Made by a program: the position numbers and the translations under genes
Part shown: positions 554 to 63,290 of the stretch, piece by piece
Position numbering within the stretch: position 1 is the first letter of the stretch
Layout: each line of letters opens with the position of its first letter
Notes under the pieces: generated by a model
What the model saw: the letters and a program-made list of their open reading frames with translations, nothing else
What the model was told of the DNA's origin: nothing
The model's database searches: none
Assembly: GCA_040878325.1 (NCBI GenBank)
Contig: JBBDMM010000018.1
Span: 83,083 to 147,082, forward strand
Length of the DNA: 64,000 bases
Direction: 5' to 3'
DNA from: Acidimicrobiia bacterium
GTDB taxonomy: Bacteria > Actinomycetota > Acidimicrobiia > Spongiisociales > UBA11373

Positions 554-569
554 GAGTCTCCAGCCTCCA

Positions 570-675
570 GTCCCCAGTCAAGAGCGTCCTCCTCCGCCGT
601 CCTCGGCGGGGGAGGTGGCGCCGCCGTTTCGGCGGTGACGGAGGGGGCACTGAGACAGCGTGCGGCCCAACGCGG
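570..675. repeat. Copy 1 of dispersed ~95-nt GC-rich multi-hairpin element (+ orientation), 3' of rplS
   Basis: The core aagagcgtcctcctccgccgtcctcggcgggggaggtggcgccgccgtttcggcggtgacggagggggcactgagacagcgtgcgg is shared with copies at 25384, 35752, 35862(rc) and 63191(rc). It contains inverted repeats cctcctccgccg/cggcgggggagg and gccgccg/cggcgg. Confidence 0.55.
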
Positions 676-746
676 TTTCGCCCTTCGCCTTTCGCTCCTC
701 TTGACTCTTGAATCTTGAGTCTCCAGACCACCGCTACCGTCTCGCC

Positions 747-8054: not shown

Positions 8055-8320
8055 GAAGTCGCCAGTCTCCAGCCTCCAGCCTCCAGCCTAAGAACCGGCT
8101 CCAGCTCCGGCTCCAGCCAGAAAGAACCGGCCTTCCGCCTTCAGCAAGAAGACCTTGGTCCGGGTTTCGCTTTTCGCCTTTCGCATCCTGAATTCCGCCT
8201 CTCGCGAGTCGCACGCTCGCAACTCGCCCACTCTCCACCCGCCGTCGTATCGCGTATCGCGAGTCCCGTATTCAGCATTGCGGGTTGGGGATTGCTGGCC
8301 TCTACACTCCACTCCAATCA
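8055..8320. repeat. Repeat tract phased at 7 nt filling the sigma-rpsB spacer (ccagcct x3, ccggctccagct x2, ttcgctt/ttcgcct, cgcctct cgcgagt cgcacgc...)
   Basis: Seen directly; the 7-nt phase is maintained across about 250 nt. Confidence 0.65.
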
Positions 8321-11070: not shown

Positions 11071-13721
11071 GCCCCGGCAGGCGAGGAGGCGGCGTGAGCG
11101 ACAGGGGAGACAACGACTTTCAGCCCCATCCGGGCGACCCCTGGCATCCCACGTGGGATAGCGCATACGCTGTCGATCGGCCCGTCGATGCTCCCGAAGC
11201 GGATGAGTCCGACCCGGACGGATCTGCTTCCGGAAAGACCAAGCGGGCAAAGCGCGGTCGCCTTGGACGTCGTCGCAAGGATTCCCCGGCTGAGGCGGCA
11301 AGTGACGTCGAAGAGGAGTCGATCGACGATCCGACCCGCGGTGAGGTCGACTTCGATCTCCCGGCGGCGCCGGTAGCCGAGCCGCCGACCGAGGACCGCG
11401 CCCCACTTCCCGCCTGGCTGGCTGAGTCCGGGCCCGACTCCCCGGCCGCACCCGCGCTCGAGGTCGAATTGCCGTCGTGGGTCGGCGGCGCGACTGCCGG
11501 TGCCGATGACGCCGGTGGCGAGTTCCCCGATCAGGTCTTCGACGACCAGGACGAAGGCGACGACGAGTTGGACGACGGAATCAGCGCGCCGGCCGCGGTC
11601 GAGGCATCGGACGAAATTGCGTCGGTACCCCCTCGTGAAGTTCCCGATGACCTGGCGGCGGTGCTCGACGCGCTCGGCGACGACGGCGACGAGATCGAAG
11701 TCCTCGCGGTGGAAGCCTTCGAAGTCGAAGCCGAGGAAGAGGATCCGGAGGAGTTGCCCGATCTCGAGTCACTCGTCGGAGCAGTCGGCGGCTTCCAGGA
11801 CCCCTCGCCCGAGGACGCCGCGGCTCGCTCCGAGTACGGGGTTGCCGGGCGGGATGCGTTCGATGCGCTGAAAGACCCCGATGGATCCGATGACCTCGGC
11901 GACTGGCATCAGTTTGCGGGAGCCACCGGCGACGAGTCGGAGACGCTGCCCATCGAGGTGGTGGTTGATCCCCCGGTGCCTGAGCCGCGCGAAGGTGGGA
12001 AGCGCGGTCGTTGGTTCCGGCGCAAGGTCGAGGAAGCCGACGAGTCGGAGGTCGTCGCCGAGGAGGCGGCCGATTGGGCCGATGACGGCACTGCGATTCC
12101 GGCGGGATGGTTCGCCGAGATCGACGAAGACACCGTGGTCACGCCCCCGGTCGAGCCCCCCGACACCGAGTATCCGGAACCCGACGAGATAGTCGCGGTG
12201 GCGCCGACCGACCTCGGGTCGGATGAGGTCGAGGAGTTGCCGGTGGCGCTGGCGCCGGGGGATTGGTCGGATGAGGTCGAGGAGTTGCCGGCGGCACCGG
12301 TGGCGGGGGATTGGTCGGATGAGGGTGAGGAGTTGCCGGTGGTGCCGGTGGCGCCGTTGGATTGGTCGGTTGAGGGGGAGGTGCTGCGTTCGAATCTCCC
12401 TGCCGCGCCGCAGCCGGGACTCTTCGACGACCGGCATGCCACGGAGGAGTTCGATCCTATCGCTGCAGGCATCGGTGGGGTCGCTCCCGACATTTCCGCA
12501 ACCCCGGATTGGGAAGACGACCGGGCCGGGGAAGCACCAGTGGCGCAAGGGTTAGCCCCCCTGGGCTTCGACGACGGTGAATCGGCCGGTCACGACGAGG
12601 AGCTCACCTCGGACGAGGATGACGAGGGATACGAAGACCGCTGGGTGACTGGCCCCATCGATCTCGGCGGCGAGTACCTCGGGGCGGCCGATGACTCTGG
12701 CGCCTACGAGTCCATCGACGAACTCGACGACGCCACCTATCGGACCTCGTCGACGACCGAACACCGCGGCCTCGCCGAGGAGATCGCCCTCACGGGCGAC
12801 GAGGAGCACGAATGGCAGGCAATGGCCGCGGCGATGCCCGGGGTCGAATCGGGCGTGGTCGGTTTCGAGGATGTGGCCGACCTCGGCGACGACGAGGAGT
12901 ACCTCGATACCAGGGTGCGGTCGGATTTGGGCACCCGGATCCTCACCGGAGTCGTGCTCGGCGGCTTCTTCCTCGGCTCGCTGTGGGTCGCCCCCGAAGC
13001 CCTGGCGGGTTTCATCGCAATCATCCTGCTGCTGGGACTCGGTGAATTCTTCGCAACCGTGCGCCGACGCGGCTGGCGGCCGCTGGCCCTCTTCGGATTT
13101 CTGGGCGCCATCTCGATGCTGGCTACCACCTGGTTCCATGGCCCGATCGCTGTCGCCGCCACGCTGGCGATGACGACGGTCGTGACGTTCTTTGTGTTCG
13201 CCTTCTCGCCGCTGCGCCGGGATGCGCTGACCAACGGCGGTCTCACCGTTCTCGGCCTGGCGTGGGTCGTCGGCACCGCGGCGTTCGTGTACCCGATCCT
13301 GGCCAACGAGGACTATCGGGTCCTGGTGATTGCCATCGTCGTCGTGACCGCAGCCATGGACATCGGCGCATACGCCGTCGGTCGGGCGTGGGGGGTTCGC
13401 GCGCTTGCGCCCGTCCTCTCCCCGAACAAGTCGGTGGAGGGCCTGGTCGGAGGGATCGGCTTGTGCATGCTCGCCGCAGCCGCCGTGGGCAACTTCCTCG
13501 AGCCATTCGACCTGCTCTCCGGCATCGGGTTGGGGATCGTCGTGGTATTCGCCGCGCCCCTGGGCGACCTGGCCGAATCGATGTTCAAGCGAAGCCTCGG
13601 AGTGAAGGACATGGGGTCGATCCTCCCCGGGCACGGCGGAATCCTCGACCGGGTCGATGCCCTCCTCTTCGTGATTCCTGCAGCGTGGGCGTTCTATCAG
13701 ACCGTCGGGTTCCTGGGGTGA
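11067..13721 (+). CDS. cdsA: Phosphatidate cytidylyltransferase (CdsA) with ~590-aa acidic low-complexity N-terminal extension
   Basis: The C-terminal ~290 aa is canonical CdsA (multiple TM helices, SVEGLVGG...AESMFKRSLGVKDMGSILPGHGGILDR). The N-terminal part is D/E/P/A-rich with DWSDEVEELP repeats. The frame is continuously open from GTG 11067, which overlaps the frr stop. The true start is unverified. Confidence 0.75.
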   Translation: MSPGRRGGGVSDRGDNDFQPHPGDPWHPTWDSAYAVDRPVDAPEADESDPDGSASGKTKRAKRGRLGRRRKDSPAEAASDVEEESIDDPTRGEVDFDLPAAPVAEPPTEDRAPLPAWLAESGPDSPAAPALEVELPSWVGGATAGADDAGGEFPDQVFDDQDEGDDELDDGISAPAAVEASDEIASVPPREVPDDLAAVLDALGDDGDEIEVLAVEAFEVEAEEEDPEELPDLESLVGAVGGFQDPSPEDAAARSEYGVAGRDAFDALKDPDGSDDLGDWHQFAGATGDESETLPIEVVVDPPVPEPREGGKRGRWFRRKVEEADESEVVAEEAADWADDGTAIPAGWFAEIDEDTVVTPPVEPPDTEYPEPDEIVAVAPTDLGSDEVEELPVALAPGDWSDEVEELPAAPVAGDWSDEGEELPVVPVAPLDWSVEGEVLRSNLPAAPQPGLFDDRHATEEFDPIAAGIGGVAPDISATPDWEDDRAGEAPVAQGLAPLGFDDGESAGHDEELTSDEDDEGYEDRWVTGPIDLGGEYLGAADDSGAYESIDELDDATYRTSSTTEHRGLAEEIALTGDEEHEWQAMAAAMPGVESGVVGFEDVADLGDDEEYLDTRVRSDLGTRILTGVVLGGFFLGSLWVAPEALAGFIAIILLLGLGEFFATVRRRGWRPLALFGFLGAISMLATTWFHGPIAVAATLAMTTVVTFFVFAFSPLRRDALTNGGLTVLGLAWVVGTAAFVYPILANEDYRVLVIAIVVVTAAMDIGAYAVGRAWGVRALAPVLSPNKSVEGLVGGIGLCMLAAAAVGNFLEPFDLLSGIGLGIVVVFAAPLGDLAESMFKRSLGVKDMGSILPGHGGILDRVDALLFVIPAAWAFYQTVGFLG
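12215..12386. repeat. 48-bp tandem repeat x3.5 inside the cdsA N-terminal extension (encodes DWSDEVEELPxxPVAx)
   Basis: gattggtcggatgaggtcgaggagttgccggyggcrccggtggcgsss repeated head-to-tail. Confidence 0.8.
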
Positions 13722-19306: not shown

Positions 19307-19652
19307 GTTCGTCAAGATCGGATCGCCAGTCGTCTTCCATTCCCCCACCTCACGCAACAGAGGTCAAGACCGATTTGCCACCCATCGCCCTCCGGTGGCG
19401 AGGACTCGGAAGTTGGCCTCGCTGAGGATGTCGATCGTCTGCTCCCTGACGCGTTCCCACGTGTGCCGCAGGGTGCCGCCGACCTCCAGCGATCATCCCT
19501 CGCCGAGTCGGTCGCCGAGGTCTGAAAGCGCTCCCCGGAGAGTCCCCCTTGCGGGAGGCGGGAGGCGTGGCCATGGCCCAAGGCGGCCGGGAGCCGCCAG
19601 AAGGCGGAAGGCCCTCTTGCTGGAGACTGGAGACTTCCTATCCTCGCCTCTC

Positions 19653-23227: not shown

Positions 23228-25363
23228 ATGCGCGTCTACGAACTTGCCCGTGACCTGGGCATGGAATCGAAGGATGTGCTGGCGCGCGTCCATGAGTTGG
23301 GCGTCGATGCCAAGACCGCTTCGTCCGGCATTTCCGACGACGATGCCGCACTCGTCAGACTCTCCTACGAAGAGGAGAAGGCGGCAACTGCGGCACCTGC
23401 CGCGCCCGCTGCTCCCACCCCCGCCGCCGAACCCGCCGCGGTGACCCTCGAGGTGGTCGTCGACGAAGACGACGACGATGACGTCGATGAGGACGGTGCC
23501 GAGGACGGCGATGGCGACGGCCCCGAGATGCGGGCAAAGTCCGGCAAGCGCAAGGGGCGGCTGGTCGGCGACGACGGCCCCGCGCCGCGCCGGCCGGTGA
23601 CCGTGCGCGAAGGCATCACCGTCCAGGAGTTCTCCGACCTCACCCGCCGCCCGGTAGGGATCGTGGTTCGGGAACTGATCACCCGCGGCCTGATGGCTGG
23701 CGCCACCCAGCCGATCCCTGTCGAGATGCTCGAAGTGGTGGGGGAGGCCCTGGGTTACGACGTGACCGTGGAGAAGGCCGTTGCCCCGGCCGTCGTCCCG
23801 GATGAGCCGTTGGTGCGTCCCAAGCGCGAATTCGCCGACGATCCCGCCACCCTGAAGCTGCGTCCCCCGGTCGTCACCGTGATGGGCCACGTCGACCACG
23901 GCAAGACCCAGCTGCTCGACACCATCCGGCGCACCAACGTCGTCGCCGGCGAGGCAGGCCGCATCACCCAGCACATCGGCGCCTATCAGGCAGGCATCGG
24001 CGACAAGAAGATCACCTTCATCGACACTCCCGGCCACGAGGCGTTCACCTCGCTGCGTGCCCGTGGGGCGGAAGTGACCGACGTCGTCGTTCTCGTGGTC
24101 GGTGCCGACGATGGCGTCATGCCGCAGACGGTGGAGGCGATCAGCCACGCCAAGGCCGCCGGGGTGCCGATCGTGATCGCCATAAACAAGATGGACCTCC
24201 CCGGCGCCGATCCCGCCACGGTCCGGGCCCAGCTCACCGAGCACGGCATCATCGTCGAAGGCCTCGGCGGCGACGTCATCAGTGCTGAGGTCTCCGCCCT
24301 CACCGGCCAGGGCATCGAGCAGCTGCTCGAGTACCTCGGCCTCATCGCCGAGATCGAAGAATTCTCGGCGAACCCGGATGCTCCGGCCTCCGGCACGGTC
24401 ATCGAGTCCCAGCTCGAAAAGGGTCGGGGTCCGGTGACCACCCTCATCGTGCAGCGCGGCACCCTCAATCGGGGTGATGCCATCGTCGCCGGAGCGGTCT
24501 CCGGGCGGGTGCGGGCGATGTTCGATCATGCCGGCGAGCAGATCGAAACCGCCGGGCCGAGCACTCCTGTGGTCGTCATGGGATGGGACGACGTCCCCCA
24601 GGCAGGAGACTTCTTCGAGGCAGTCGCCGATGACAAGACCGCACGGGCGATGGCCGCCGATCGGGAAACGGCGACGCGCGACCGAGATCTGTTCGTGCCC
24701 ACGGCGGCCGCTCGCCTCAGCCAGTTGCTCGACGACCTCCGTACCGCCGACGACGCCGAGTTGCCGATCATCGTGAAGGCCGATGCCCATGGGTCGCTCG
24801 AGGCGATCCGGGATTCGGTTGCCAAGATCGGCCGCGAAGGCGGGTCCATTTCGATCATCCACGCCGCAGTCGGCGGCATCACCGAGACCGACGTCCTTCT
24901 TGCGGAGACCACCAACGCCATCGTGTTCGGCTTCAACGTGCGCCCCGACGCCAACTCCCGCAAGGCGGCAGAGGCGGCCGGGGTCGAGGTCCGGACCTAC
25001 CGGATCATCTACGAACTGCTCGACGACATCGAAGCGATCCTCGTGGGGCGCCTCGCCCCCGACGAGGTCGAGCGTGTCACCGGTTCTGCCGAAGTTCGGG
25101 CAACCTTCCGGGCGCCGCGCTTCGGCACCATCGCCGGCTCGTATGTCACCGAGGGCGAGATCACCCGCGGTTCCAAGGTGCGGCTGGTACGTAACGGCGT
25201 CGTCGTATACGACGGCGTCATCGCCTCCCTCCGGCGCTTCAAGGACGACGTCCGCTCGGTCGCCTCCGGCTTCGAATGCGGTATCGCCCTGGAGAACTTC
25301 CGCGACGTAAAGGAAGGCGACGTGATGGAGACGTACGAGGTGCGAGAGGTAGCGCGGACGTAG
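23228..25363 (+). CDS. infB: Translation initiation factor IF-2
   Basis: [18 protein letters not shown]...[14 protein letters not shown]... Confidence 0.9.
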
Positions 25364-25383: not shown

Positions 25384-25472
25384 AAGAGCGTCCTCCCCCG
25401 GCTTCCGGGGGAGGTGCCGAAGCGAAGCGAGGCGGAGGGGGCAGCGGAGACAGCGTGCGGTCCGACGACGGA
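25384..25472. repeat. Copy 2 of the ~95-nt GC-rich hairpin element (+ orientation), 3' of infB
   Basis: aagagcgtcctcccccggcttccgggggaggtgccgaagcgaagcgaggcggagggggcagcggagacagcgtgcggtccgacgacgg aligns to the 570 and 35752 copies. Confidence 0.55.
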
Positions 25473-25575
25473 GCCTTCTCCAGGAACCGGGACAGTCCTG
25501 CTCGCACCGATTGACTTTCTGGCGAATCGCCAATCGCCAATTGCCTTTCGCGCCGAGCAAAGCGAGGCTTCTTCC

Positions 25576-30172: not shown

Positions 30173-30215
30173 TCGCGCATTGCGCATTGCGCATTGCGCA
30201 TTGCGTATCGCGTTC
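30173..30215. repeat. gcgcatt x4 heptamer tandem repeat (then gcgtatc gcg)
   Basis: Perfect 7-nt tandem copies, seen directly. Confidence 0.8.
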
Positions 30216-33261: not shown

Positions 33262-33453
33262 ATGAAGGTTCGTTCATTCATCGCCTGCTTCCTGATCGTC
33301 ACCGCGTGTGGCGGTGGGGGTGATCCGTCGGTGCCCGCAGGGCAGGACGACGGGCTCATCACCGGAAATGTCGAGCGGTCCCAAGAGGTCGCCGACCAGG
33401 CGAGCGATCGGGAGAGCGAACTCGAACAGATCGTGGAGGACATGGGGGGATAG
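33262..33453 (+). CDS. Hypothetical small lipoprotein (signal peptide plus LIVTAC lipobox, acidic mature part)
   Basis: 63-aa ORF in a locally lower-GC segment. MKVRSFIACFLIVTACGGGG. Confidence 0.35.
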   Translation: MKVRSFIACFLIVTACGGGGDPSVPAGQDDGLITGNVERSQEVADQASDRESELEQIVEDMGG

Positions 33454-33454
33454 C

Positions 33455-33577
33455 CCCCAGCCTCCATCCTCCAGCAAGAGGCGCGCTAGTCGGGTTCTGC
33501 CTTTCGCTCTTCGCCTTTCGCATCCCATAAGGCGCTCTGTCGCGGTGCGCATCGCGCATCGCGCATTGCATTGCGCA
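33455..33577. repeat. Repeat tract phased at 7 nt (ccagcct/ccatcct, ttcgctc ttcgcct ttcgcat, gcgcatc gcgcatc gcgcatt gcattgc gcatcga)
   Basis: Seen directly. Confidence 0.6.
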
Positions 33578-33593
33578 TCGAACATATGTTCGG
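33578..33593 (+). promoter_or_regulatory. LexA operator (actinobacterial/Cheo-type SOS box TCGAAC-ATAT-GTTCGG), followed by a TAAGAT -10-like hexamer
   Basis: Perfect CGAAC-N4-GTTCG palindrome 10 nt upstream of the imuA' start. Established consensus for Gram-positive/actinobacterial LexA. Confidence 0.6.
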
Positions 33594-33602
33594 TAAGATC
33601 GA

Positions 33603-34265
33603 GTGCCCTTGGACCGGGCATCTCTTCTCCTCGCCGGCGCAACAAGTGCCCCTTCTCACGAACCGGCCGCGCCCTTCGCCATCCAGGCAGAGCCCGGCCG
33701 GGTGCTCGGCCTGGTGGGGCCCGCCGGTTTTGGGCTCACCCGTCTCGGCCTGAGCCTGCTCGCCGCCCCTTCCCTCACCGGGATGGTCGCCGTGGTCGAT
33801 GTCCGGGGCTGGTTGTGCCCGGTGGCCGCCTGGGAGGTGGGGGTCGACCCCGAGCGGCTGGTGATGGTTCGCTGCCCCGATCGTCGGGCATGGCGGCAGG
33901 TCACCGCTTCCCTCCTCGAAGGCTTTCCCGTCGTCTTCGCCGAAGTGCCCGTGGGCACCGCTGAGGCCGACCTGCGTCGCCTCGCCGCCCTGTCACGGGC
34001 GCGGCGGGCGGCATTGCTGCTTCGCCCGGTTTCGGGTGACCTCCCTGCCGGAGTGCTCCATCTGCGGATCGAGGCGACGGCGGTCCGTTGGGAGGGGGTG
34101 GACCGCGGCCATGGCGCCCTGCTGCGGCGCCACCTCACCCTGCTCGCCTCGGGCAAGGGGGCTCGGGGCATCGAGCGGGTAGTGGAGATGGAGGACGATG
34201 GCACGCACGCTGTGCGTCTGGTTCCCGGACTGGCCGTTGCGCCGTCCGGACTCGCCGCCGGATAG
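33603..34265 (+). CDS. ImuA'-like (RecA-fold/SulA-like) mutasome accessory protein
   Basis: About 220 aa with a degenerate P-loop-like GLVGPAGFGLTRLGL. It lies immediately upstream of, and overlapping, an ImuB-like gene and downstream of a LexA box. The start (GTG 33603) would make the transcript near-leaderless. Confidence 0.55.
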   Translation: MPLDRASLLLAGATSAPSHEPAAPFAIQAEPGRVLGLVGPAGFGLTRLGLSLLAAPSLTGMVAVVDVRGWLCPVAAWEVGVDPERLVMVRCPDRRAWRQVTASLLEGFPVVFAEVPVGTAEADLRRLAALSRARRAALLLRPVSGDLPAGVLHLRIEATAVRWEGVDRGHGALLRRHLTLLASGKGARGIERVVEMEDDGTHAVRLVPGLAVAPSGLAAG

Positions 34266-35658
34266 GCCCTGCCAGGTCGTCGACGACAAGGGGATGGTGG
34301 TGGCGGCCACCGCCGATGCCGTCGACGCCGGGGTCCGCACCGGCATGCGTCGTCGCGAGGCGGAGGCGCTCTGTCCCAATGCGGTCACCCTCGTGGCCGA
34401 CCCCGGCGCCGAGGCGGTGGCCTTCGAGCCGGTGGCCGTTGCCATCGAAGCCGTGGTGCCCCGGATGGAGTTGGCTGCCCCCGGCCTGGTGTTCGTGCCC
34501 GCCGCCGGGGCAGTCCACTACTACGGGTCCGAGGATGCTCTGGTGGGGAAGATGGTGGCGGCGGTGGAGGCGATGGCGCCAGGGGGCCGCTTCGGACTGG
34601 CCGACGGGCCTTTCGCCGCCCGGCTGGCCGCCGAGGCTGCAGTAGAGGAGCCCCTGATCGTCGTCGACACCGCCGCCTTCCTCGCCGGGCTGGATGTCGC
34701 CACCCTGGGGGCGGACGATCTGGTCGCCACCTTCCGGTGGTTGGGAGTAGGCACCCTCGGAGACCTCGCCTCCCTGCCCCGCGCCGCCATCGCCTCCCGA
34801 TTCGGGCCGATCGGATTGGATGCCCACCGCATCGCCAGCGGGGAGGATCGTCCGGTCGAGCCGCGACGGATCGGCGAAGAGATCGCGGTGGAAGAGGTCT
34901 TCGAGCATCCACTCGAGGACTTCGAGCGGGCATCGTTCGCGGCCCGGGGGCTGGCGGGGAGGCTCCTCGAGGCGGTGGCGCCCACCGGGGGGATGCCCCA
35001 CCGGGTGGAGGTGGAGGCCGAGTCGGCCCTGGGGGAGCTGCGCACCCGCACCTGGCGGAGTGCCCATCCGTTCTCCGAAGCGGAACTGGCCGAGCGGGTC
35101 CGGTGGCAGATCAGGGCGTGGATCGAATCGGGCGGGGTGCCCGGGGGGATCATCCGGATCCGCTTGGCCCCCGCCGACCTGTCCGACCTCGGTCGGCAAC
35201 TCAAACTGGGGGAGGACGCCGCCTCCGAGGATGATGCCCGCCGGGCCCTCAGCCGGGCCCAGGGGCTGATCGGCCCCGACGCGGTGCTCCAGGCGATGCC
35301 CCAAGGAGGACGCGACCCGGGGGAGCGGGTCCACTGGTACCGATGGGGCGAACCGCCGGGCGCCGAGGCGCGGGACCCGAAGGCCCCCTGGCCGGGAAGG
35401 CTGTCCCAGCCCTCACCCGCCCTGGTGCCCCCCGACCCGCGGCCCTTCGAAGTCGAATGGGAAGACGGCTTCCCCACCAGGGTCCGCCTGGGGAGCCGCT
35501 GGGAGCCGGTCCTCGGCTGGGCCGGCCCCTGGCGCCGGACCGGCAAGTGGTGGGAAGGTGAGCCCGCCGCCGACCGCTATCAGATCGTCACCTCCGCCGG
35601 CGCCTTCCTGTGCGAGGTGAGGGAAGAGAGGTGTTGGTTGGTGGGGGTGTATGACTAG
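34198..35658 (+). CDS. imuB: ImuB-like Y-family DNA polymerase paralogue (catalytically inactive type)
   Basis: N-terminus MARTLCVWFPDWPLRR is the hallmark ImuB/DinB-fold start. The palm/fingers region is alignable to Y-family polymerases. The gene overlaps imuA' by 68 nt. Confidence 0.75.
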   Translation: MARTLCVWFPDWPLRRPDSPPDRPCQVVDDKGMVVAATADAVDAGVRTGMRRREAEALCPNAVTLVADPGAEAVAFEPVAVAIEAVVPRMELAAPGLVFVPAAGAVHYYGSEDALVGKMVAAVEAMAPGGRFGLADGPFAARLAAEAAVEEPLIVVDTAAFLAGLDVATLGADDLVATFRWLGVGTLGDLASLPRAAIASRFGPIGLDAHRIASGEDRPVEPRRIGEEIAVEEVFEHPLEDFERASFAARGLAGRLLEAVAPTGGMPHRVEVEAESALGELRTRTWRSAHPFSEAELAERVRWQIRAWIESGGVPGGIIRIRLAPADLSDLGRQLKLGEDAASEDDARRALSRAQGLIGPDAVLQAMPQGGRDPGERVHWYRWGEPPGAEARDPKAPWPGRLSQPSPALVPPDPRPFEVEWEDGFPTRVRLGSRWEPVLGWAGPWRRTGKWWEGEPAADRYQIVTSAGAFLCEVREERCWLVGVYD

Positions 35659-35745
35659 CGGCCGCCTTCGGCGGCCAGGCGATTGGCGATTGGCGATTGG
35701 CAAGAAAGAAGAGAAGAGTCTTATCTCCTCCCGGAACCCGGAGGA
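35659..35745. repeat. Repeat tract phased at 7 nt (ggcgatt x3, then aagaaga gaagagt cttatct)
   Basis: Seen directly. Confidence 0.7.
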
Positions 35746-35751
35746 GATAAG

Positions 35752-35847
35752 AAGAGCGTCCTCCTCCGTCGTCTTCGACGGGGGAGGTGGCGCCGCCGTC
35801 TTCGGCGGTGACGGAGGGGGCGGCGGAGACAGCGGGCGGTCGGACGA
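35752..35847. repeat. Copy 3 of the ~95-nt GC-rich hairpin element (+ orientation), 3' of imuB
   Basis: aagagcgtcctcctccgtcgtcttcgacgggggaggtggcgccgccgtcttcggcggtgacggagggggcggcggagacagcgggcggtcggacgac; about 90% identical to the copy at 570. Confidence 0.6.
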
Positions 35848-35861
35848 CTTCTTCAAGAACC

Positions 35862-35948
35862 GGGTCCAGTCCCTCTCGCAGGGTCAGCCGCCCCCCCTCC
35901 CCCCTTCGGGGTACTCCCCCCGGAAGCCGGAGGGAGACGTCGGGAAGG
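35862..35948. repeat. Copy 4 of the element in - orientation (3' of recQ), forming an inverted pair with copy 3
   Basis: ctcgcagggtcagccgcccc...ccggaagccggagggag; its reverse complement contains ccggcttccgggggga, matching the 25384 copy, and the 5' end matches the 63191 copy. Confidence 0.5.
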
Positions 35949-35968
35949 TGAGGTCCTCGTGCTTCTCG

Positions 35969-37630
35969 CTAATCGCCCAGCACCTCCAGGAACGCCTCCC
36001 CATACGACTCGAGTTTCATCGGGCCTACCCCGCTGACTTCGAGCAACTCGGATCTCGATTGCGGTCTCCGGGCGACCATGTCTCTCAGGGTGGCGTCACT
36101 GAAGATCACATACGCGGGAACGCCTCGTTTGTCGGCGAGTTGCTTGCGAAGTTCGCGGAGGCGGTTGAACAACGGGTCGTCGGCTACTCCCGCTTTGACG
36201 TTCCTCGCCGCGCGTTGGTCCTTCTTGGTGGTCACATCGAGAGTCGATCCCCGGCACGAGTCGCACGAGTCGTCGCACTGGTCGATCGTCTCGCCGAAGT
36301 AGCCGACCAGATTGCGCCAGCGGCAGCGGGGATTCTCCGCCCAGTGGTACATCCGGCGGATCTGCTCGCTGCGCAGGTCGGCGCCGGCCTCGCCCGCCCA
36401 GAGGCGTTCCCGGCCGATCACGTCGGACCACGAGTAGAAGAGCACGCAGTCGCTGGGCAGTCCGTCCCGTCCCGCCCGGCCGATCTCCTGGTAGTACGAC
36501 TCGACCGACGCCGGCATGTCGCGGTGGATCACGAAGCGGATGTTCGACTTGTCGATCCCCATCCCGAAGGCCACGGTGGCGCACACCACCCCCACCTCGT
36601 CGCGGATGAAGGCGTCCTGCACGCGGGTGCGGTCATCCGACGACATCCCGGCGTGATAGGCGAGTGCGGGGACGCCCTGCTTGCGGAGGTAGTCGGCGGT
36701 CGACTCGGCCGCCTTGCGTGACAGGGTGTACACGATGCCGCTCTCGCCCTTCCGGTCCTTGCAGATCTGTCCGATCGCACTGCGCGTGTTCACCTTCTTG
36801 CCGTCGGGCTGTTCACCCTTCTTGACGACGTGGAGGTTCAGGTTGGGGCGGAAGAAGGAGCCCCGCAGCATCAGCGGATCCTCCAACCCGAGTTGGTCGA
36901 CGATGTCGCGGGTGACCTCGGCGGTGGCGGTGGCGGTGAGGGCGAGCACCGGGACGCCGAACCGGCCCTTCAACCCGCGCAGATTGCGATAGGACGGGCG
37001 GAAGTCGTGGCCCCACTGGCTGATGCAGTGCGCCTCGTCGACGGCGATGAGCCGCAGGTCGACCCCTTCGAGGGCGGCGCCCACCGAGGCGTCGATCCCT
37101 TCCGGGGCGGCGTACACCAACTCGTACTCGCCCCGACGCATGCGGTCGACCCGCTGCCGCCGTTCCTCCGGTTCGAGGCTGGAGTTGAGGAAGGTCGCCC
37201 GCATCCCCACCTCGTCCAACCCATCGACCTGGTCCTTCATCAGCGCGATCAGCGGAGAGATCACCAGGGTGGTCCCGCCGAGCAGCCGGGCGGTCAGTTG
37301 AAAGGTGAGCGACTTACCGGCGCCGGTCGGCATGATCCCGATGCAGTCGCGGCCGATGAGCAGGGCGGAGATGATCTCCCGCTGGCCAGGCCGAAACTCG
37401 GAGAATCCGAAGACTTCCCGGAGGGCGGCGTCGAGGTCGTCGCTGATCGTCGATTGGAGTTGTGCGCCGACCTGGCGCAGCCGGGCGATGGAGTCGGGCG
37501 TGAAGTCCTCAGGCTGGTCCTGCCATCGGGCTCGCAATGCAGCGAGCTCGCGACGGGCGCTCGCCGGGTCGCGCGTTGCGAGCGCACCGAGGCCCGTGAT
37601 CCGGTCGGTGAGTTCGGCGGGCTCGGTCAT
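35969..37630 (-). CDS. recQ: ATP-dependent DNA helicase RecQ (helicase, RQC zinc motif, HRDC domain)
   Basis: [57 protein letters not shown], and a C-terminal [18 protein letters not shown]. Confidence 0.9.
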
Positions 37631-63085: not shown

Positions 63086-63190
63086 GACTGGAACCATATC
63101 ACATGGTTATGGTCGTGTCGACTAGAACATTTACGAGAGGCGATGGGCGAATCGAGAAGGGGATTGGCAATCGAGGTCTTGAAGTCGTCA

Positions 63191-63290
63191 GAGTGCTCGC
63201 AGGGTCAGCTGCCCCCTCCGCCTCGCTTCGCTTCGGCACCTCCCCCGCCCCAGGCGGCAGGGGAGGACCCTGGCCTCCCTCAACCGTCCA
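63191..63290. repeat. Copy 5 of the ~95-nt GC-rich hairpin element (- orientation), 3' of the ABC ATPase gene
   Basis: Its reverse complement contains ggaggtgccgaagcgaagcgaggcggagggggcag, matching the 25384 copy. Confidence 0.55.

What the first reader, a model, noticed from the sequence alone, without database searches (positions are those of the whole stretch)
35752..35948. Inverted pair of the hairpin element between convergent imuB and recQ
Copy 3 (+) and copy 4 (-) face each other across 14 bp. They form a roughly 200-bp perfect-in-principle palindrome at a convergent gene junction. Such inverted pairs can act as bidirectional terminators. They are also the geometry expected for MITE ends or recombination hotspots.
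Basis: seen in the sequence. Interest (0 to 1): 0.5.

Follow-up and report, generated by a model that had tools for sequence, protein, structure and literature searches.

The report
Inverted pair of triplex-type DNA repeats
The spacer between the converging imuB and recQ genes holds two facing copies of an abundant, apparently unnamed intergenic repeat found in many bacterial phyla. Each copy is built like a known "intrastrand triplex" DNA element, and this junction differs in repeat content in almost every close relative.

Summary
The inverted pair is real, but it is not a 200-bp palindrome.

**What is there.** The two halves are different subtypes of one repeat family: an L unit at 35758-35821 (+) and an R unit at 35938-35892 (-). 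They lie tail to tail, and each is in sense orientation to its nearest gene. A covariance model built only from foreign genomes finds exactly five copies in the window, including both halves.

**The family.** It occurs in alphaproteobacteria and at least nine other phyla. Copies usually form head-to-head or tail-to-tail dimers at gene 3' ends.

**Unit anatomy.**
- Hairpin P1, whose base is CCTCCCCC/GGGGGAGG.
- One T.
- A variable hairpin P2.
- A purine tail, GGAGGGGG, that mirrors the P1 purine arm.

**Structural evidence.**
- Both hairpins covary.
- Wobble pairs fall on the G-rich strand only (73 against 4).
- The tail covaries with P1 in a parallel, mirrored register.

That register matches a class II purine-motif intrastrand triplex, as shown in vitro for E. 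coli BoxC/PIT/TMECO repeats, which also form type A + type B inverted pairs and mark unstable loci.

**Relatives.** The same junction carries no unit, one unit, tandem units or order-swapped units.

**Verdict.** This is a new variant of a known kind. Triplex formation, mobility and any terminator role are inferred.

The parts
35660..35676 (+). Context: a GC hairpin (GGCCGCC-TTC-GGCGGCC) starting 2 nt after the imuB stop codon (35656-35658). It is terminator-like but has no T tract.
   Evidence: Read from the sequence. The same position holds a hairpin with different stem sequences in relatives L121, L207, L209 and L214.
35678..35701 (.). Context: a heptamer tandem repeat, (GGCGATT) x 3.4. Relatives carry GCAATTG, GCGATTC or GCGATTG repeats at the same place.
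   Evidence: TRF. Relatives.
35719..35752 (-). Context: a 16-bp hairpin (TCTTATCTCCTCCCGG AA CCCGGAGGAGATAAGA) followed on the - strand by a T-rich tail. It is the only canonical terminator-like site in the spacer and lies beyond both units in the recQ direction.
   Evidence: the repeat finder pair I3. Terminator scan.
35752..35757 (+). Lead-in AAGAGC. It is identical in window copies A (580-585) and B (25384-25389) and frequent before L units in relatives (CAAGAGCGTCC).
   Evidence: (family D7).
35758..35821 (+). L unit core, in sense orientation to imuB. Its parts are:
- head GT, 35758-35759
- P1 5' arm, 35760-35771 (the basal 8 nt, CCTCCTCC, are homopyrimidine)
- P1 loop, 35772-35775
- P1 3' arm, 35776-35787 (basal GGGGGAGG)
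- linker T, 35788
- P2 hairpin, 35789-35812
- mirror purine tail GGAGGGGG, 35813-35820
- C, 35821
   Evidence: R1 hit of 34.9 bits, E 5.8e-8. It is 94% identical to copy A over 88 nt. Hairpins appear in the fold. Coordinates read.
35822..35891 (.). The two tails plus the linker:
- L tail GGCGGAGACAGCG, 35822-35834
- apex near 35848-35860
- R tail, seen on the + strand as CGCAGGGTCAGCC, 35877-35889

Together they form an imperfect central hairpin with conserved purine-purine mismatches.
   Evidence: Inverted repeat I1, 75%. Folds. The same linker is conserved in composites from other loci.
35892..35938 (-). R unit core, in sense orientation to recQ. Read on the - strand, its parts are:
- head GT, 35938-35937
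- P1 5' arm, 35936-35927 (CTCCCTCCGG)
- P1 loop, 35926-35924
- P1 3' arm, 35923-35914 (CCGGGGGGAG)
- linker T, 35913
- P2, 35912-35900 (ACCCC GAA GGGGG)
- mirror tail GAGGGGGG, 35899-35892
   Evidence: R1 hit of 33.3 bits, E 1.7e-7. The same subtype recurs as the right arm of 16 composites and in L091. The register of the tail depends on counting an A.G pair in P2.
586..648 (+). Family copy A. It lies 33 nt after rplS (191-553) and before lepB (708-1469), in sense orientation.
25390..25442 (+). Family copy B. It lies 27 nt after the infB stop codon (25361-25363), in sense orientation.
63211..63268 (-). Family copy D. It lies 12 nt after a - strand ABC-transporter ATPase gene (ends 63280) and before a NUDIX/NrtR gene, in sense orientation.

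Best explanation
The region is a tail-to-tail heterodimer of two subtypes (L and R) of a high-copy, G+C-rich intergenic repeat family.

**Unit anatomy, all on one strand.**
- A pyrimidine arm, CCTCCCCC.
- A purine arm, GGGGGAGG. With the pyrimidine arm it forms the base of hairpin P1, which continues upward as a variable Watson-Crick stem.
- A single T.
- A variable connector hairpin, P2.
- A purine tail, GGAGGGGG, that is the mirror image of the purine arm.

This is the domain order of a class II (purine-motif) potential intrastrand triplex. The tail can lie antiparallel to the purine arm and form G.G-C and A.A-T triplets. The same arrangement was shown in vitro for E. coli BoxC/PIT/TMECO repeats.

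**Likely mode of action (inferred).**
- The fold forms only when the G-rich strand is single-stranded.
- In this lineage that strand is the non-template strand, and also the RNA, of the upstream gene.
- The element behaves as a self-propagating or recombination-spread repeat that is tolerated at gene 3' ends.
- It turns over quickly.
- By analogy with TMECO and H-DNA, it probably stalls polymerases and makes its locus rearrangement-prone.

**Shown here.**
- Family membership of both halves.
- Covariation in both hairpins.
- Strand asymmetry of wobble pairs.
- Mirrored covariation between tail and P1.
- Recurrence of the heterodimer at other loci.
- Bias toward gene 3' ends and sense orientation.
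- Hypervariability of this junction among relatives.

**Inferred only.**
- Triplex formation.
- The mechanism of spread.
- Any effect on replication, transcription or rearrangement.
For: **Membership.**
- The foreign-built model R1 finds both halves.

**Breadth.**
- Hits came from Alphaproteobacteria, Rhodothermales, Dormibacterota, Acidimicrobiia and other Actinomycetota, Phycisphaerae, Chloroflexi, Acidobacteriota, Saccharibacteria, Bacteroidota and Bacillota, among others.

**Hairpins.**
- In 147 hits, 94.7% of cells are paired.
- 11 of 13 pairs show changes on both sides.
- The covariation score is 0.289, against 0.094 for shuffles and at most 0.053 for slid registers.

**Strand.**
- There are 73 G.U pairs on the G-rich strand and 4 A.C pairs.
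- In minimum-energy folds the counts are 199 and 17.
- The G-rich strand is the more stable in 102 cases against 42.

**Mirror tail.**
- Mutual information between tail and P1 is confined to the mirrored diagonal:

| P1 position <-> tail position | Bits |
|---|---|
| 24<->39 | 0.25 |
| 23<->40 | 0.13 |
| 21<->42 | 0.08 |
| 20<->43 | 0.06 |
| 17<->46 | 0.13 |

- The 22<->41 cell is weak, at 0.05 bits.
- Most other cells are near 0. The neighbouring cells 22<->40 and 23<->41 reach 0.04-0.06.
- 16 of 36 variant purine arms have an exactly mirrored tail. The maximum in 20,000 shuffles is 4.
- Five distinct coordinated states were seen. In one, the bottom pair is inverted to G-C and the tail base is T in 6 of 6 cases.
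- A parallel register cannot be a Watson-Crick helix.

**Dimers.**
- 146 of 230 copies have a neighbour within 150 nt: 36 head to head, 27 tail to tail and 14 in tandem.
- There are 16 distinct L + R composites like the window's.

**Location.**
- Spacer types for the copies: convergent 41, co-directional 48, divergent 6.
- In the window's own lineage the upstream gene is on the same strand in 38 cases against 10 (p = 6e-5).
- Unit strand shows no link to local GC skew, 15 against 21.

**Turnover at the orthologous imuB/recQ junction.**

| Locus | Identity to window protein | Content of the junction |
|---|---|---|
| L209, L210 | RecQ 93% | R-type (+) then L-type (-), order swapped |
| L213 | RecQ 84% | one L unit |
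| L214, L215 | RecQ 81% | two tandem L units |
| L122 | ImuB 86% | a toxin-antitoxin pair, no unit |
| L121 | ImuB 96% | different neighbour gene, no unit |
| L207 | ImuB 94% | L core absent |

**Precedent (PMC4666352).**
- TMECO folds into a stable triplex as single-stranded DNA.
- It is intergenic.
- Its inverted pairs in E. coli MG1655 are always type A + type B.
- Its loci are more rearranged between strains than control sites.
Against: - No experiment was possible, so the triplex is inferred from sequence alone.
- The mirrored covariation rests on a handful of variant states in related sequences, and no phylogeny-aware test was available.
- The alignments were fitted to the model.
- The R-type tail register depends on how a G run is split between P2 and the tail. 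Under the model's own alignment, 6 R-type copies do not mirror.
- The connector is 10-27 nt and structured. The first 'loop' is an extended stem. Both lie outside the loop limits used to define such motifs: 1-6 nt in ITxF and 0-10 nt in Hoyne and Maher (PMC4666352).
- For TMECO itself, triplex formation was not detected in vivo (PMC4666352).
- The sense-orientation bias and the G.U pairs would equally fit an RNA-level role for the two hairpins.
- No mobilising enzyme and no target-site duplication were found.
Confidence: 0.6

Rival explanations
1. The units are an RNA-level 3'-UTR device. They are transcribed with the upstream genes, and the very stable P1/P2 hairpins stop transcription or block 3'-to-5' exonucleases. 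On this reading the pair works as a bidirectional terminator or stabiliser for imuB and recQ, much as REP sequences do in E. coli operons.
For: - All five window copies are in sense orientation and lie 12-100 nt after a stop codon.
- In the lineage, 38 of 48 L units follow a same-strand gene.
- Orientation tracks transcription, not GC skew.
- Wobble pairs sit on the transcribed-sense strand.
- The hairpins are very stable. The 211-nt region folds at -115.5 kcal/mol.
Against: - No T or U tract follows any unit.
- A canonical hairpin plus T tail for the recQ direction lies beyond the pair.
- The units are absent, replaced or reordered at the same junction in close relatives, so they are not a conserved part of these genes' expression.
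- In alphaproteobacteria, co-directional spacers hold 28 sense and 20 antisense copies.
- One copy lies in frame inside a leuS gene.
- RNA hairpins do not explain the mirrored tail covariation, and purine-motif triplexes are reported not to form in RNA (PMC4666352, citing Semerad and Maher 1994).
- PIT elements had no terminator activity (PMC4666352).
Confidence: 0.25
2. [quoted passage not shown] It is moved as one piece by a transposase encoded elsewhere, and the two units are its imperfect terminal inverted repeats. Single units are decay products.
For: - The composite recurs at 16 distinct loci with conserved tails and linker and with ends CGTCCTCC... and ...GGGAGACG.
- It is present or absent between relatives.
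- G+C-rich copies occur in low-GC genomes and inside a gene, which suggests insertion.
- Short-read contigs break inside the repeat.
Against: - No target-site duplication is visible in 16 composites.
- No Y1/RAYT-like transposase was found in 1.53 Mb of element-bearing loci. This is a weak negative, because the queries were recalled from memory.
- Singletons, head-to-head dimers, tandem arrays and order-swapped dimers are all common.
- P1 and P2 stems are mixed and matched between composites, which does not fit copying as a unit.
Confidence: 0.2
3. The pair is a chance juxtaposition of G+C-rich hairpins in a 72% G+C spacer, with no shared origin.
For: Direct alignment of the two halves does not beat shuffled controls. 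The overall fold z-score is modest.
Against: A model built from other phyla scores both halves at E of about 1e-7, with nothing comparable elsewhere in 64 kb. The same two subtypes recur together at 16 loci.
Confidence: 0.02

Closest known systems
E. coli BoxC, also called PIT elements or TMECO: intrastrand triplex motif repeats (Hoyne and Maher 2000, 2002; Holder et al. 2015, PMC4666352)
   Same: - Same domain order on one strand: pyrimidine arm, purine arm, then a mirror purine (reverse-Hoogsteen) arm. This is class II, with C-G.G and T-A.A triplets.
- G+C-rich, multi-copy and intergenic.
- Inverted pairs are always made of two different subtypes.
- Associated with locally rearranged loci.
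- No linked transposase.
   Different: - The sequence differs: CCCTCNCCC/GGGNGAGGG in TMECO against CCTCCCCC/GGGGGAGG here. The TMECO pattern has 0 matches in the window.
- Here the first 'loop' is an extended, covarying Watson-Crick stem.
- Here the family spans many phyla, whereas TMECO was reported in proteobacteria.
- Here there is a sense-strand and 3'-end bias, whereas TMECO showed no strand bias and lay more often upstream of ORFs.
REP, BIME and REPIN elements (E. coli, Pseudomonas), including the GTAG- and CGTC-tagged REP superfamilies (Di Nocera et al. 2013, PMC3733652)
   Same: - Short, G+C-rich intergenic palindromic units.
- High copy number.
- Head-to-head and tail-to-tail dimers, often heterodimers.
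- Clusters of alternating orientation.
- Enriched between convergent genes and at 3' ends.
- Occasional intragenic copies.
   Different: - The unit here has two hairpins plus a mirror tail, about 47-65 nt, rather than one 20-40-nt hairpin.
- It lacks the defining CGTC-family features: an 8-9-bp stem with A/T at its base, a 4-5-nt loop and a CCA tail.
- It has no GTAG head.
- No RAYT was found.
Bacterial MITEs and in-frame palindromic elements (Correia/NEMIS, RUP, Rickettsia RPE)
   Same: - Non-autonomous.
- Fold into long hairpins.
- Polymorphic between strains.
- Can sit in frame inside genes, as the copy in a Saccharibacteria leuS does.
   Different: - No target-site duplication.
- No matching insertion sequence.
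- The modular single unit is the common form.
CIR, the CcrM-associated intergenic repeats of Caulobacter and Brucella (Chen and Shapiro 2003, as summarised in PMC2229807)
   Same: - Two stem-loop arms joined by a linker.
- Abundant in Caulobacter and other alphaproteobacteria.
- Conserved between species.
   Different: - CIRs are about 110 bp and are defined by a GANTC site in a terminal loop.
- No GANTC occurs in 35752-35948.
- I saw none by eye in the Caulobacter copies listed.
- The original paper could not be read, so identity is not excluded.
Double-hairpin elements of fungal mitochondrial DNA
   Same: Short mobile elements made of two adjacent hairpins. They are found in spacers and inside genes.
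   Different: They are organellar, have unrelated sequence, and no mirror tail is described. This comparison rests on my own knowledge plus the titles and mentions returned.

Membership tests
Class II potential intrastrand triplex (PIT/TM) motif | On one strand, from 5' to 3': a pyrimidine-rich domain, then a purine-rich domain, then a reverse-Hoogsteen purine domain (PMC4666352) | tested here: met
   L unit: CCTCCTCC (35760-35767), GGGGGAGG (35780-35787), GGAGGGGG (35813-35820). The R unit has the same order on the - strand.
Class II potential intrastrand triplex (PIT/TM) motif | The third domain mirrors the purine domain, giving at least 6-8 consecutive G.G-C, A.A-T or T.A-T triplets with at most one mismatch | tested here: met
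   - L unit: 8 of 8 levels, one of them over a T.G wobble.
- R unit: 8 of 8 if P2 includes an A.G pair.
- Across the family, mutual information lies on the mirrored diagonal, and 16 of 36 variant arms are mirrored against at most 4 in shuffles.
Class II potential intrastrand triplex (PIT/TM) motif | Short connecting loops: 1-6 nt in ITxF, 0-10 nt in Hoyne and Maher | tested here: not met
   - In the L unit, loop 1 is a further 4-bp stem plus a 4-nt loop.
- In the L unit, loop 2 is a T plus a 24-nt hairpin.
- Across the family, the connector is 8-30 nt.
Class II potential intrastrand triplex (PIT/TM) motif | Forms a triplex as isolated single-stranded DNA (CD, NMR, melting) | not testable with these tools
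   Needs synthetic oligonucleotides.
TMECO / BoxC | The pattern CCCTCNCCC-N3-6-GGGNGAGGG-N3-GGGNGAGGG | tested here: not met
   0 matches on either strand of the window.
REP / REPIN | A single imperfect palindrome of 20-40 nt with a conserved GTAG (or CGTC) head | tested here: not met
   - The unit is two hairpins plus a tail, 47-64 nt.
- The head is GTCCTCC.
- A C precedes it in actinobacterial copies but is not conserved elsewhere.
- The CGTC-family stem, loop and tail rules are not met (PMC3733652).
REP / REPIN | Inverted dimers and clusters, enriched at gene 3' ends and between convergent genes | tested here: met
   - Head to head 36, tail to tail 27, tandem 14.
- Convergent spacers 41 against divergent 6.
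REP / REPIN | A cognate RAYT (Y1 transposase) gene flanked by the repeats | tested here: inconclusive
   tblastn with two Y1 transposase sequences recalled from memory found nothing in 1.53 Mb of held loci. Whole genomes were not available.
MITE | Terminal inverted repeats plus a target-site duplication | tested here: not met
   The composite has imperfect inverted ends, but the flanks of 16 composites show no duplication.
Intrinsic (Rho-independent) terminator | A G+C-rich hairpin immediately followed by a T/U tract | tested here: not met
   There are 0-2 T in the 15 nt after each of the five cores. The consensus scan reports only the separate hairpin at 35752-35719 on the - strand.
Any Rfam 15 family | A match at the gathering score | tested here: not met
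   No match in the whole window. Only chance microRNA-type matches with E > 0.02 in 35600-36000.
CIR (Caulobacter) | An element of about 110 bp with a GANTC site in a terminal loop | tested here: not met
   No GANTC in 35752-35948. The CIR sequences themselves could not be obtained.

The most novel reading that the evidence does not exclude
This is a previously uncatalogued family of DNA elements, spread across many phyla, that is selected to fold on one strand into a hairpin-triplex. The fold is a purine-motif triple helix closed by a structured connector hairpin. The three-way covariation between pyrimidine arm, purine arm and mirror tail would then be comparative, evolutionary evidence that an intrastrand DNA triplex forms and matters in living bacteria. 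Experiments on E. coli TMECO could not show that. Because the units point with transcription, the fold would form on the non-template strand behind RNA polymerase at gene ends. There it could act as a roadblock or as a programmed fragile site.
Probability: 0.3. Interest if true: 0.8.

Novelty: new variant of a known kind. Interest (0 to 1): 0.6.

Why it matters
**What is already known.** Intrastrand triplex repeats are known from E. coli and a few other bacteria. Their biological reality is unsettled: they fold in vitro, but folding has not been detected in vivo.

**What this family would add if the reading holds.**
- A far wider distribution, covering at least ten phyla, including genomes where the element is a G+C-rich island or sits inside a gene.
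- A structured connector that existing triplex finders cannot see.
- Coordinated three-way substitutions, which are the kind of evidence that established RNA structures.

**What it would make testable.** Whether bacteria tolerate or exploit DNA triplexes at gene ends, and whether they drive the local gene-content turnover seen at this imuB/recQ junction.

**Practical points.**
- These repeats break short-read assemblies.
- I have seen them read as spurious ORFs in genome annotations. That is my own recollection and was not tested here.

Tried and rejected
- **Rfam.** The whole window at gathering score and the spacer at E <= 10 gave nothing relevant. No tRNA or tmRNA was found.
- **Literature search by sequence words.** It returned only unrelated eukaryotic papers.
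- **CIR (Chen and Shapiro 2003).** The paper is not held. Only second-hand descriptions were available.
- **CGTC-tagged REP family.** I considered it because actinobacterial copies start with CGTCC. I rejected it on that family's own stem, loop and tail rules.
- **Shine-Dalgarno / anti-Shine-Dalgarno mimicry.** GGAGGUG is a perfect SD and CCUCC looks like the anti-SD. I rejected this as the main explanation for three reasons:
  - no start codons follow the units;
  - the family also occurs in lineages that I recall as making little use of SD sequences (Bacteroidota, Rhodothermales);
  - the mirrored tail covariation explains the conserved motifs better.
- **Alternative Watson-Crick pairing of the 5' arm with the tail.** Rejected, because the covariation register is parallel, not antiparallel.
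- **Direct-repeat relation between the purine arm and the tail.** Rejected, because mutual information lies on the mirrored mapping, not the direct one.
- **Replication-strand bias.** Unit strand does not follow local GC skew, 15 against 21.
- **Transposase search.** tblastn with RAYT and IS608 TnpA sequences recalled from memory gave no hits. This is only a weak negative.
- **Gene calling.** No gene caller was available, so I used a GC3-based ORF chooser. It misses short genes and sometimes lets ORFs overrun repeats. For that reason, 44 of 212 copies were set aside as 'overlapping a gene'.
Full report
**1. What is at the coordinates**

- The window has about 67% G+C.
- 35752-35948 lies in a 310-bp spacer between two converging genes:
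  - a + strand ImuB-like gene, 34198-35658, with an IMS domain;
  - a - strand RecQ gene, 35969-37630, with DEAD, Helicase_C, RecQ_Zn_bind and HRDC domains.
- ImuB and RecQ homologues place the window in Acidimicrobiia.
- From left to right the spacer holds:
  - a GC hairpin right after the imuB stop codon;
  - a (GGCGATT) x 3.4 heptamer repeat;
  - a 16-bp hairpin that, read on the - strand, is followed by a T-rich tail;
  - the two repeat units.

**2. Checking the observation**

Repeat finding across the window showed copies of the left half:
- after rplS, starting at 580;
- after infB, starting at 25384;
- inverted, near 63184-63271.

The left half is 94% identical to the rplS copy over 88 nt. 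Aligned to the reverse complement of the right half, it scores no better than shuffles: 21 against 17.1 +/- 2.6.

To test relatedness independently, I scanned one genome per species for GTCCTCC-N6-30-GGAGGTG-N8-30-GGAGGGGGC. The scan hit the 120-locus limit. From 31 of those foreign sequences I built covariance model R1.

With filters off, R1 finds five hits in the window at E <= 5e-7 and nothing else above 16 bits. The five include 35758-35821 (+) and 35892-35938 (-).

So the inverted pair is real, but the two halves are different subtypes. Folding shows two local hairpins on each side plus an imperfect central hairpin made by the tails, with z of about -2.1 to -2.4. It is not a long perfect palindrome.

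**3. The family**

*Distribution.* All but about six of the 130 pattern matches carry two well-formed hairpins with highly variable stems. The carriers are:
- mostly Caulobacterales, Hyphomonadaceae and Sphingomonadales;
- also Rhodothermales, Dormibacterota, Acidimicrobiia and other Actinomycetota, Phycisphaerae, Chloroflexi, Acidobacteriota, Saccharibacteria, Lewinella, Oscillospiraceae and others.

Outside the alphaproteobacteria only Lewinella is an isolate. However, several MAGs carry copies on several contigs.

*Copy arrangement.* R1 finds 230 non-overlapping copies in these loci.
- 146 have a neighbour within 150 nt: 36 head to head, 27 tail to tail and 14 in tandem.
- One 7-kb contig has 12 copies filling almost every spacer.

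*Location.* Copies avoid divergent spacers (6) and favour convergent ones (41). Co-directional spacers hold 28 sense and 20 antisense copies.

*Intragenic copy.* In a 43% G+C Saccharibacteria contig, a 37-nt copy lies in frame inside leuS.

*Databases.* Rfam has no such family.

**4. Structure**

On 147 model-aligned hits:
- 94.7% of cells pair;
- 11 of 13 pairs change on both sides;
- the covariation score is 0.289, against 0.094 for shuffles and at most 0.053 for slid registers.

The alignment is fitted to the model, which favours the structure. The unmodelled inner stems are plainly complementary and different in almost every copy.

Non-Watson-Crick pairs are strongly one-sided:
- 73 G.U pairs on the G-rich strand against 4 A.C pairs;
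- 199 against 17 in minimum-energy folds.

The fold is therefore selected on the GTCCTCC...GGAGGGGGC strand as a single strand, not as a symmetrical cruciform.

**5. The tail**

The conserved 3' tail GGAGGGGG is the mirror image of the P1 purine arm GGGGGAGG. The subtypes change all three segments together:

| 5' arm | Purine arm | Tail |
|---|---|---|
| GTCCTCC | GGAGGTG | GGAGGGGG |
| GTGCTCC | GGAGCTG | TGAGGGGG |
| GTCTCCC | GGGAGTG | GAGGGGGG |

Other coordinated states are CCTGCC/GGAAGG/GGAAGG, CTTCCC/GAAGGG/GAAGGG and CCTCTC/GGAGAG/GGAGAG (purine arm read from the base of P1 upward).

- Mutual information between tail and P1 columns lies on the mirrored diagonal. The 22<->41 cell is weak, and two neighbouring cells are comparable to it.
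- Among 272 unique copies, 16 of 36 variant purine arms have an exactly mirrored tail. The maximum in 20,000 shuffles is 4.
- The register is parallel to the pyrimidine arm, so it cannot be a Watson-Crick helix.
- It is the register of a purine-motif triple helix: G.G-C, A.A-T, and T opposite an inverted C-G pair.

Both units of the finding obey the rule. For the R unit, this holds if P2 is read with an A.G pair.

Caveats: the variant states are few, the sequences are related, and I had no phylogeny-aware test.

**6. What is known**

A literature search on this idea led to Holder et al. 2015 (PMC4666352).
- E. coli BoxC, also called PIT or TMECO, has the pattern CCCTCNCCC-N3-6-GGGNGAGGG-N3-GGGNGAGGG.
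- It is a class II purine-motif intrastrand triplex.
- 3610 copies were found in 262 proteobacterial genomes.
- As single-stranded DNA it folds stably in vitro (CD and NMR, Tm 70-82 C). Folding was not detected in vivo.
- It is always intergenic.
- It forms five inverted pairs in MG1655, each made of a type A and a type B unit.
- Its loci are more rearranged between strains than control sites.
- Earlier work found no promoter or terminator activity.
- The paper states that purine-motif triplexes do not form in RNA.

The present family shares the architecture and the heterodimer habit, but differs in several ways:
- The sequence is different. The TMECO pattern has 0 matches in the window.
- The first loop is an extended stem, and the second loop is a 10-27-nt hairpin. 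Both are beyond the 1-6-nt loops that the ITxF finder searched.
- The family has a wider host range.

It also does not fit the GTAG/CGTC REP superfamilies by their own rules. CIR repeats of Caulobacter could not be compared directly.

**7. The pair in its own lineage**

A metagenome scan for the L subtype with its tail returned 80 loci from four related samples.

*Composite.*
- L units carry a short third hairpin (GCGCG-N4-CGCGC) or a longer linker.
- In 16 distinct loci they are joined tail to tail to an R unit exactly as in the window.
- The tails pair imperfectly, with the same purine-purine mismatches each time.
- No target duplication is visible.

*Orientation.*
- L units follow a same-strand gene in 38 cases against 10 (p = 6e-5).
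- Co-directional spacers hold 12 sense and 5 antisense copies; convergent 15; divergent 2.
- Unit strand is unrelated to local GC skew, 15 against 21.
- All five window copies are in sense orientation to the gene just upstream.

*Flanks.* Units are often bracketed by CAAGAG ... CTCTTG and by heptamer tandem repeats of complementary type.

**8. The same junction in relatives**

| Locus | Identity to window protein | What lies between imuB and recQ |
|---|---|---|
| L206 | ImuB 100% | Same sequence; the contig ends inside P1 |
| L209, L210 | RecQ 93% | A tail-to-tail pair with swapped order: R-type next to imuB, L-type next to recQ, with different stems |
| L212 | same RecQ protein as L209 | A further variant |
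| L213 | RecQ 84% | One L unit |
| L214, L215 | RecQ 81% | Two tandem L units with heptamer repeats |
| L122 | ImuB 86% | A PIN/CcdA pair; no unit next to recQ |
| L121 | ImuB 96% | Neighbour gene is a VIT1 gene, not recQ; no unit |
| L207 | ImuB 94% | L core absent, but flanks present |
| L123 | ImuB 83% | An R unit without an L core; the contig ends there |

The pair is therefore not a conserved part of imuB or recQ expression. The site is a place of rapid turnover.

**9. Interpretation**

*Shown.*
- The region is an inverted heterodimer of a widespread repeat family.
- The unit has two covarying hairpins, is selected on one strand, and carries a tail that tracks P1 in mirror register.

*Inferred.*
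- The G-rich strand folds into a hairpin-triplex when single-stranded. In this lineage that strand is the non-template strand of the upstream gene.
- The elements spread by an unknown route.
- They promote local instability, by analogy with TMECO and H-DNA.

*Rivals.*
- An RNA-level terminator or stabiliser role for the hairpins is a live rival, and the two roles need not exclude each other.
- A classical MITE reading is weaker.
- Chance is excluded.

**10. Verdict**

- The thing is a new variant of a known kind, intrastrand triplex-type repeats.
- It has two unusual features: a structured connector, and three-way covariation across phyla.
- Interest: 0.6.

Noticed in passing
window 555-579, 677-722, 1492-1636, 2721-2749, 8062-8089, 8165-8261, 19551-19635, 25525-25545, 30175-30205, 33452-33578, 35678-35701: There are many period-7 tandem repeats of 2.5-5 copies with different unit sequences (AGTCTCC, CGCAATT, GCGGATG, CTGGCGA, GCGCATT, GGCGATT and others). 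At least those next to the repeat units are intergenic. They often flank the triplex-type units. Relatives carry a different heptamer at the same position. Some occur as distant inverted pairs, for example 35677-35708 with 25515-25546 (91%) and 2788-2818 with 8095-8125 (100% over 31 nt).
   Followed up: partly
L127 2474-2887; L214 4740-4940; L215 2016-2216: Whole modules (heptamer repeats + CAAGAG lead-in + L unit + CTCTTG) are themselves tandemly duplicated, with periods of about 147-174 bp. This happens at the imuB/recQ junction of relatives (L214, L215) and at another locus of the same contig (L127).
   Followed up: partly
L098 1439-4378 (Saccharibacteria MAG contig, 43% G+C): A 979-aa leucyl-tRNA synthetase ORF carries a 37-nt copy of the element in frame within the editing-domain region. 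It also gives a NUDIX domain match at residues 411-514, which is an unusual insertion for LeuRS.
   Followed up: partly
window 35719-35752 (- strand): This is the only canonical hairpin-plus-T-tract terminator-like site in the spacer. It lies on the recQ strand but beyond both repeat units, which implies that recQ transcripts would include the whole pair.
   Followed up: no
window 698-722 and 555-565: Three GANTC sites (GACTC, GAATC, GAGTC) are packed into the 25-nt heptamer repeat after copy A, and another lies just before it. GANTC is the CcrM methylation site in alphaproteobacteria. Its meaning in an Acidimicrobiia genome is unknown.
   Followed up: no
window 12217-12375: A 48-nt tandem repeat of 3.2 copies at 82% identity, probably inside a coding region.
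   Followed up: no
L122 171-482 and 2887-3529; L125 886-1197; L207 52-363; L209 7239-7550: Toxin-antitoxin genes (PemK; PIN with CcdA) lie beside, or are inserted into, the imuA'-like/imuB/recQ region in several relatives. This adds to the picture of a gene-content hotspot.
   Followed up: no
L206, L207, L208, L123 (contig ends 34-125 nt after imuB): Four independent short-read assemblies break within or just before the repeats downstream of imuB. This fits the repeats being present in many copies in those genomes.
   Followed up: partly
window 35969-37630 with 35758-35938: The neighbouring gene encodes RecQ. From my own knowledge, RecQ-family helicases are reported to unwind non-B DNA such as triplexes and quadruplexes. 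With four of five window copies next to unrelated genes, this is probably a coincidence.
   Followed up: no
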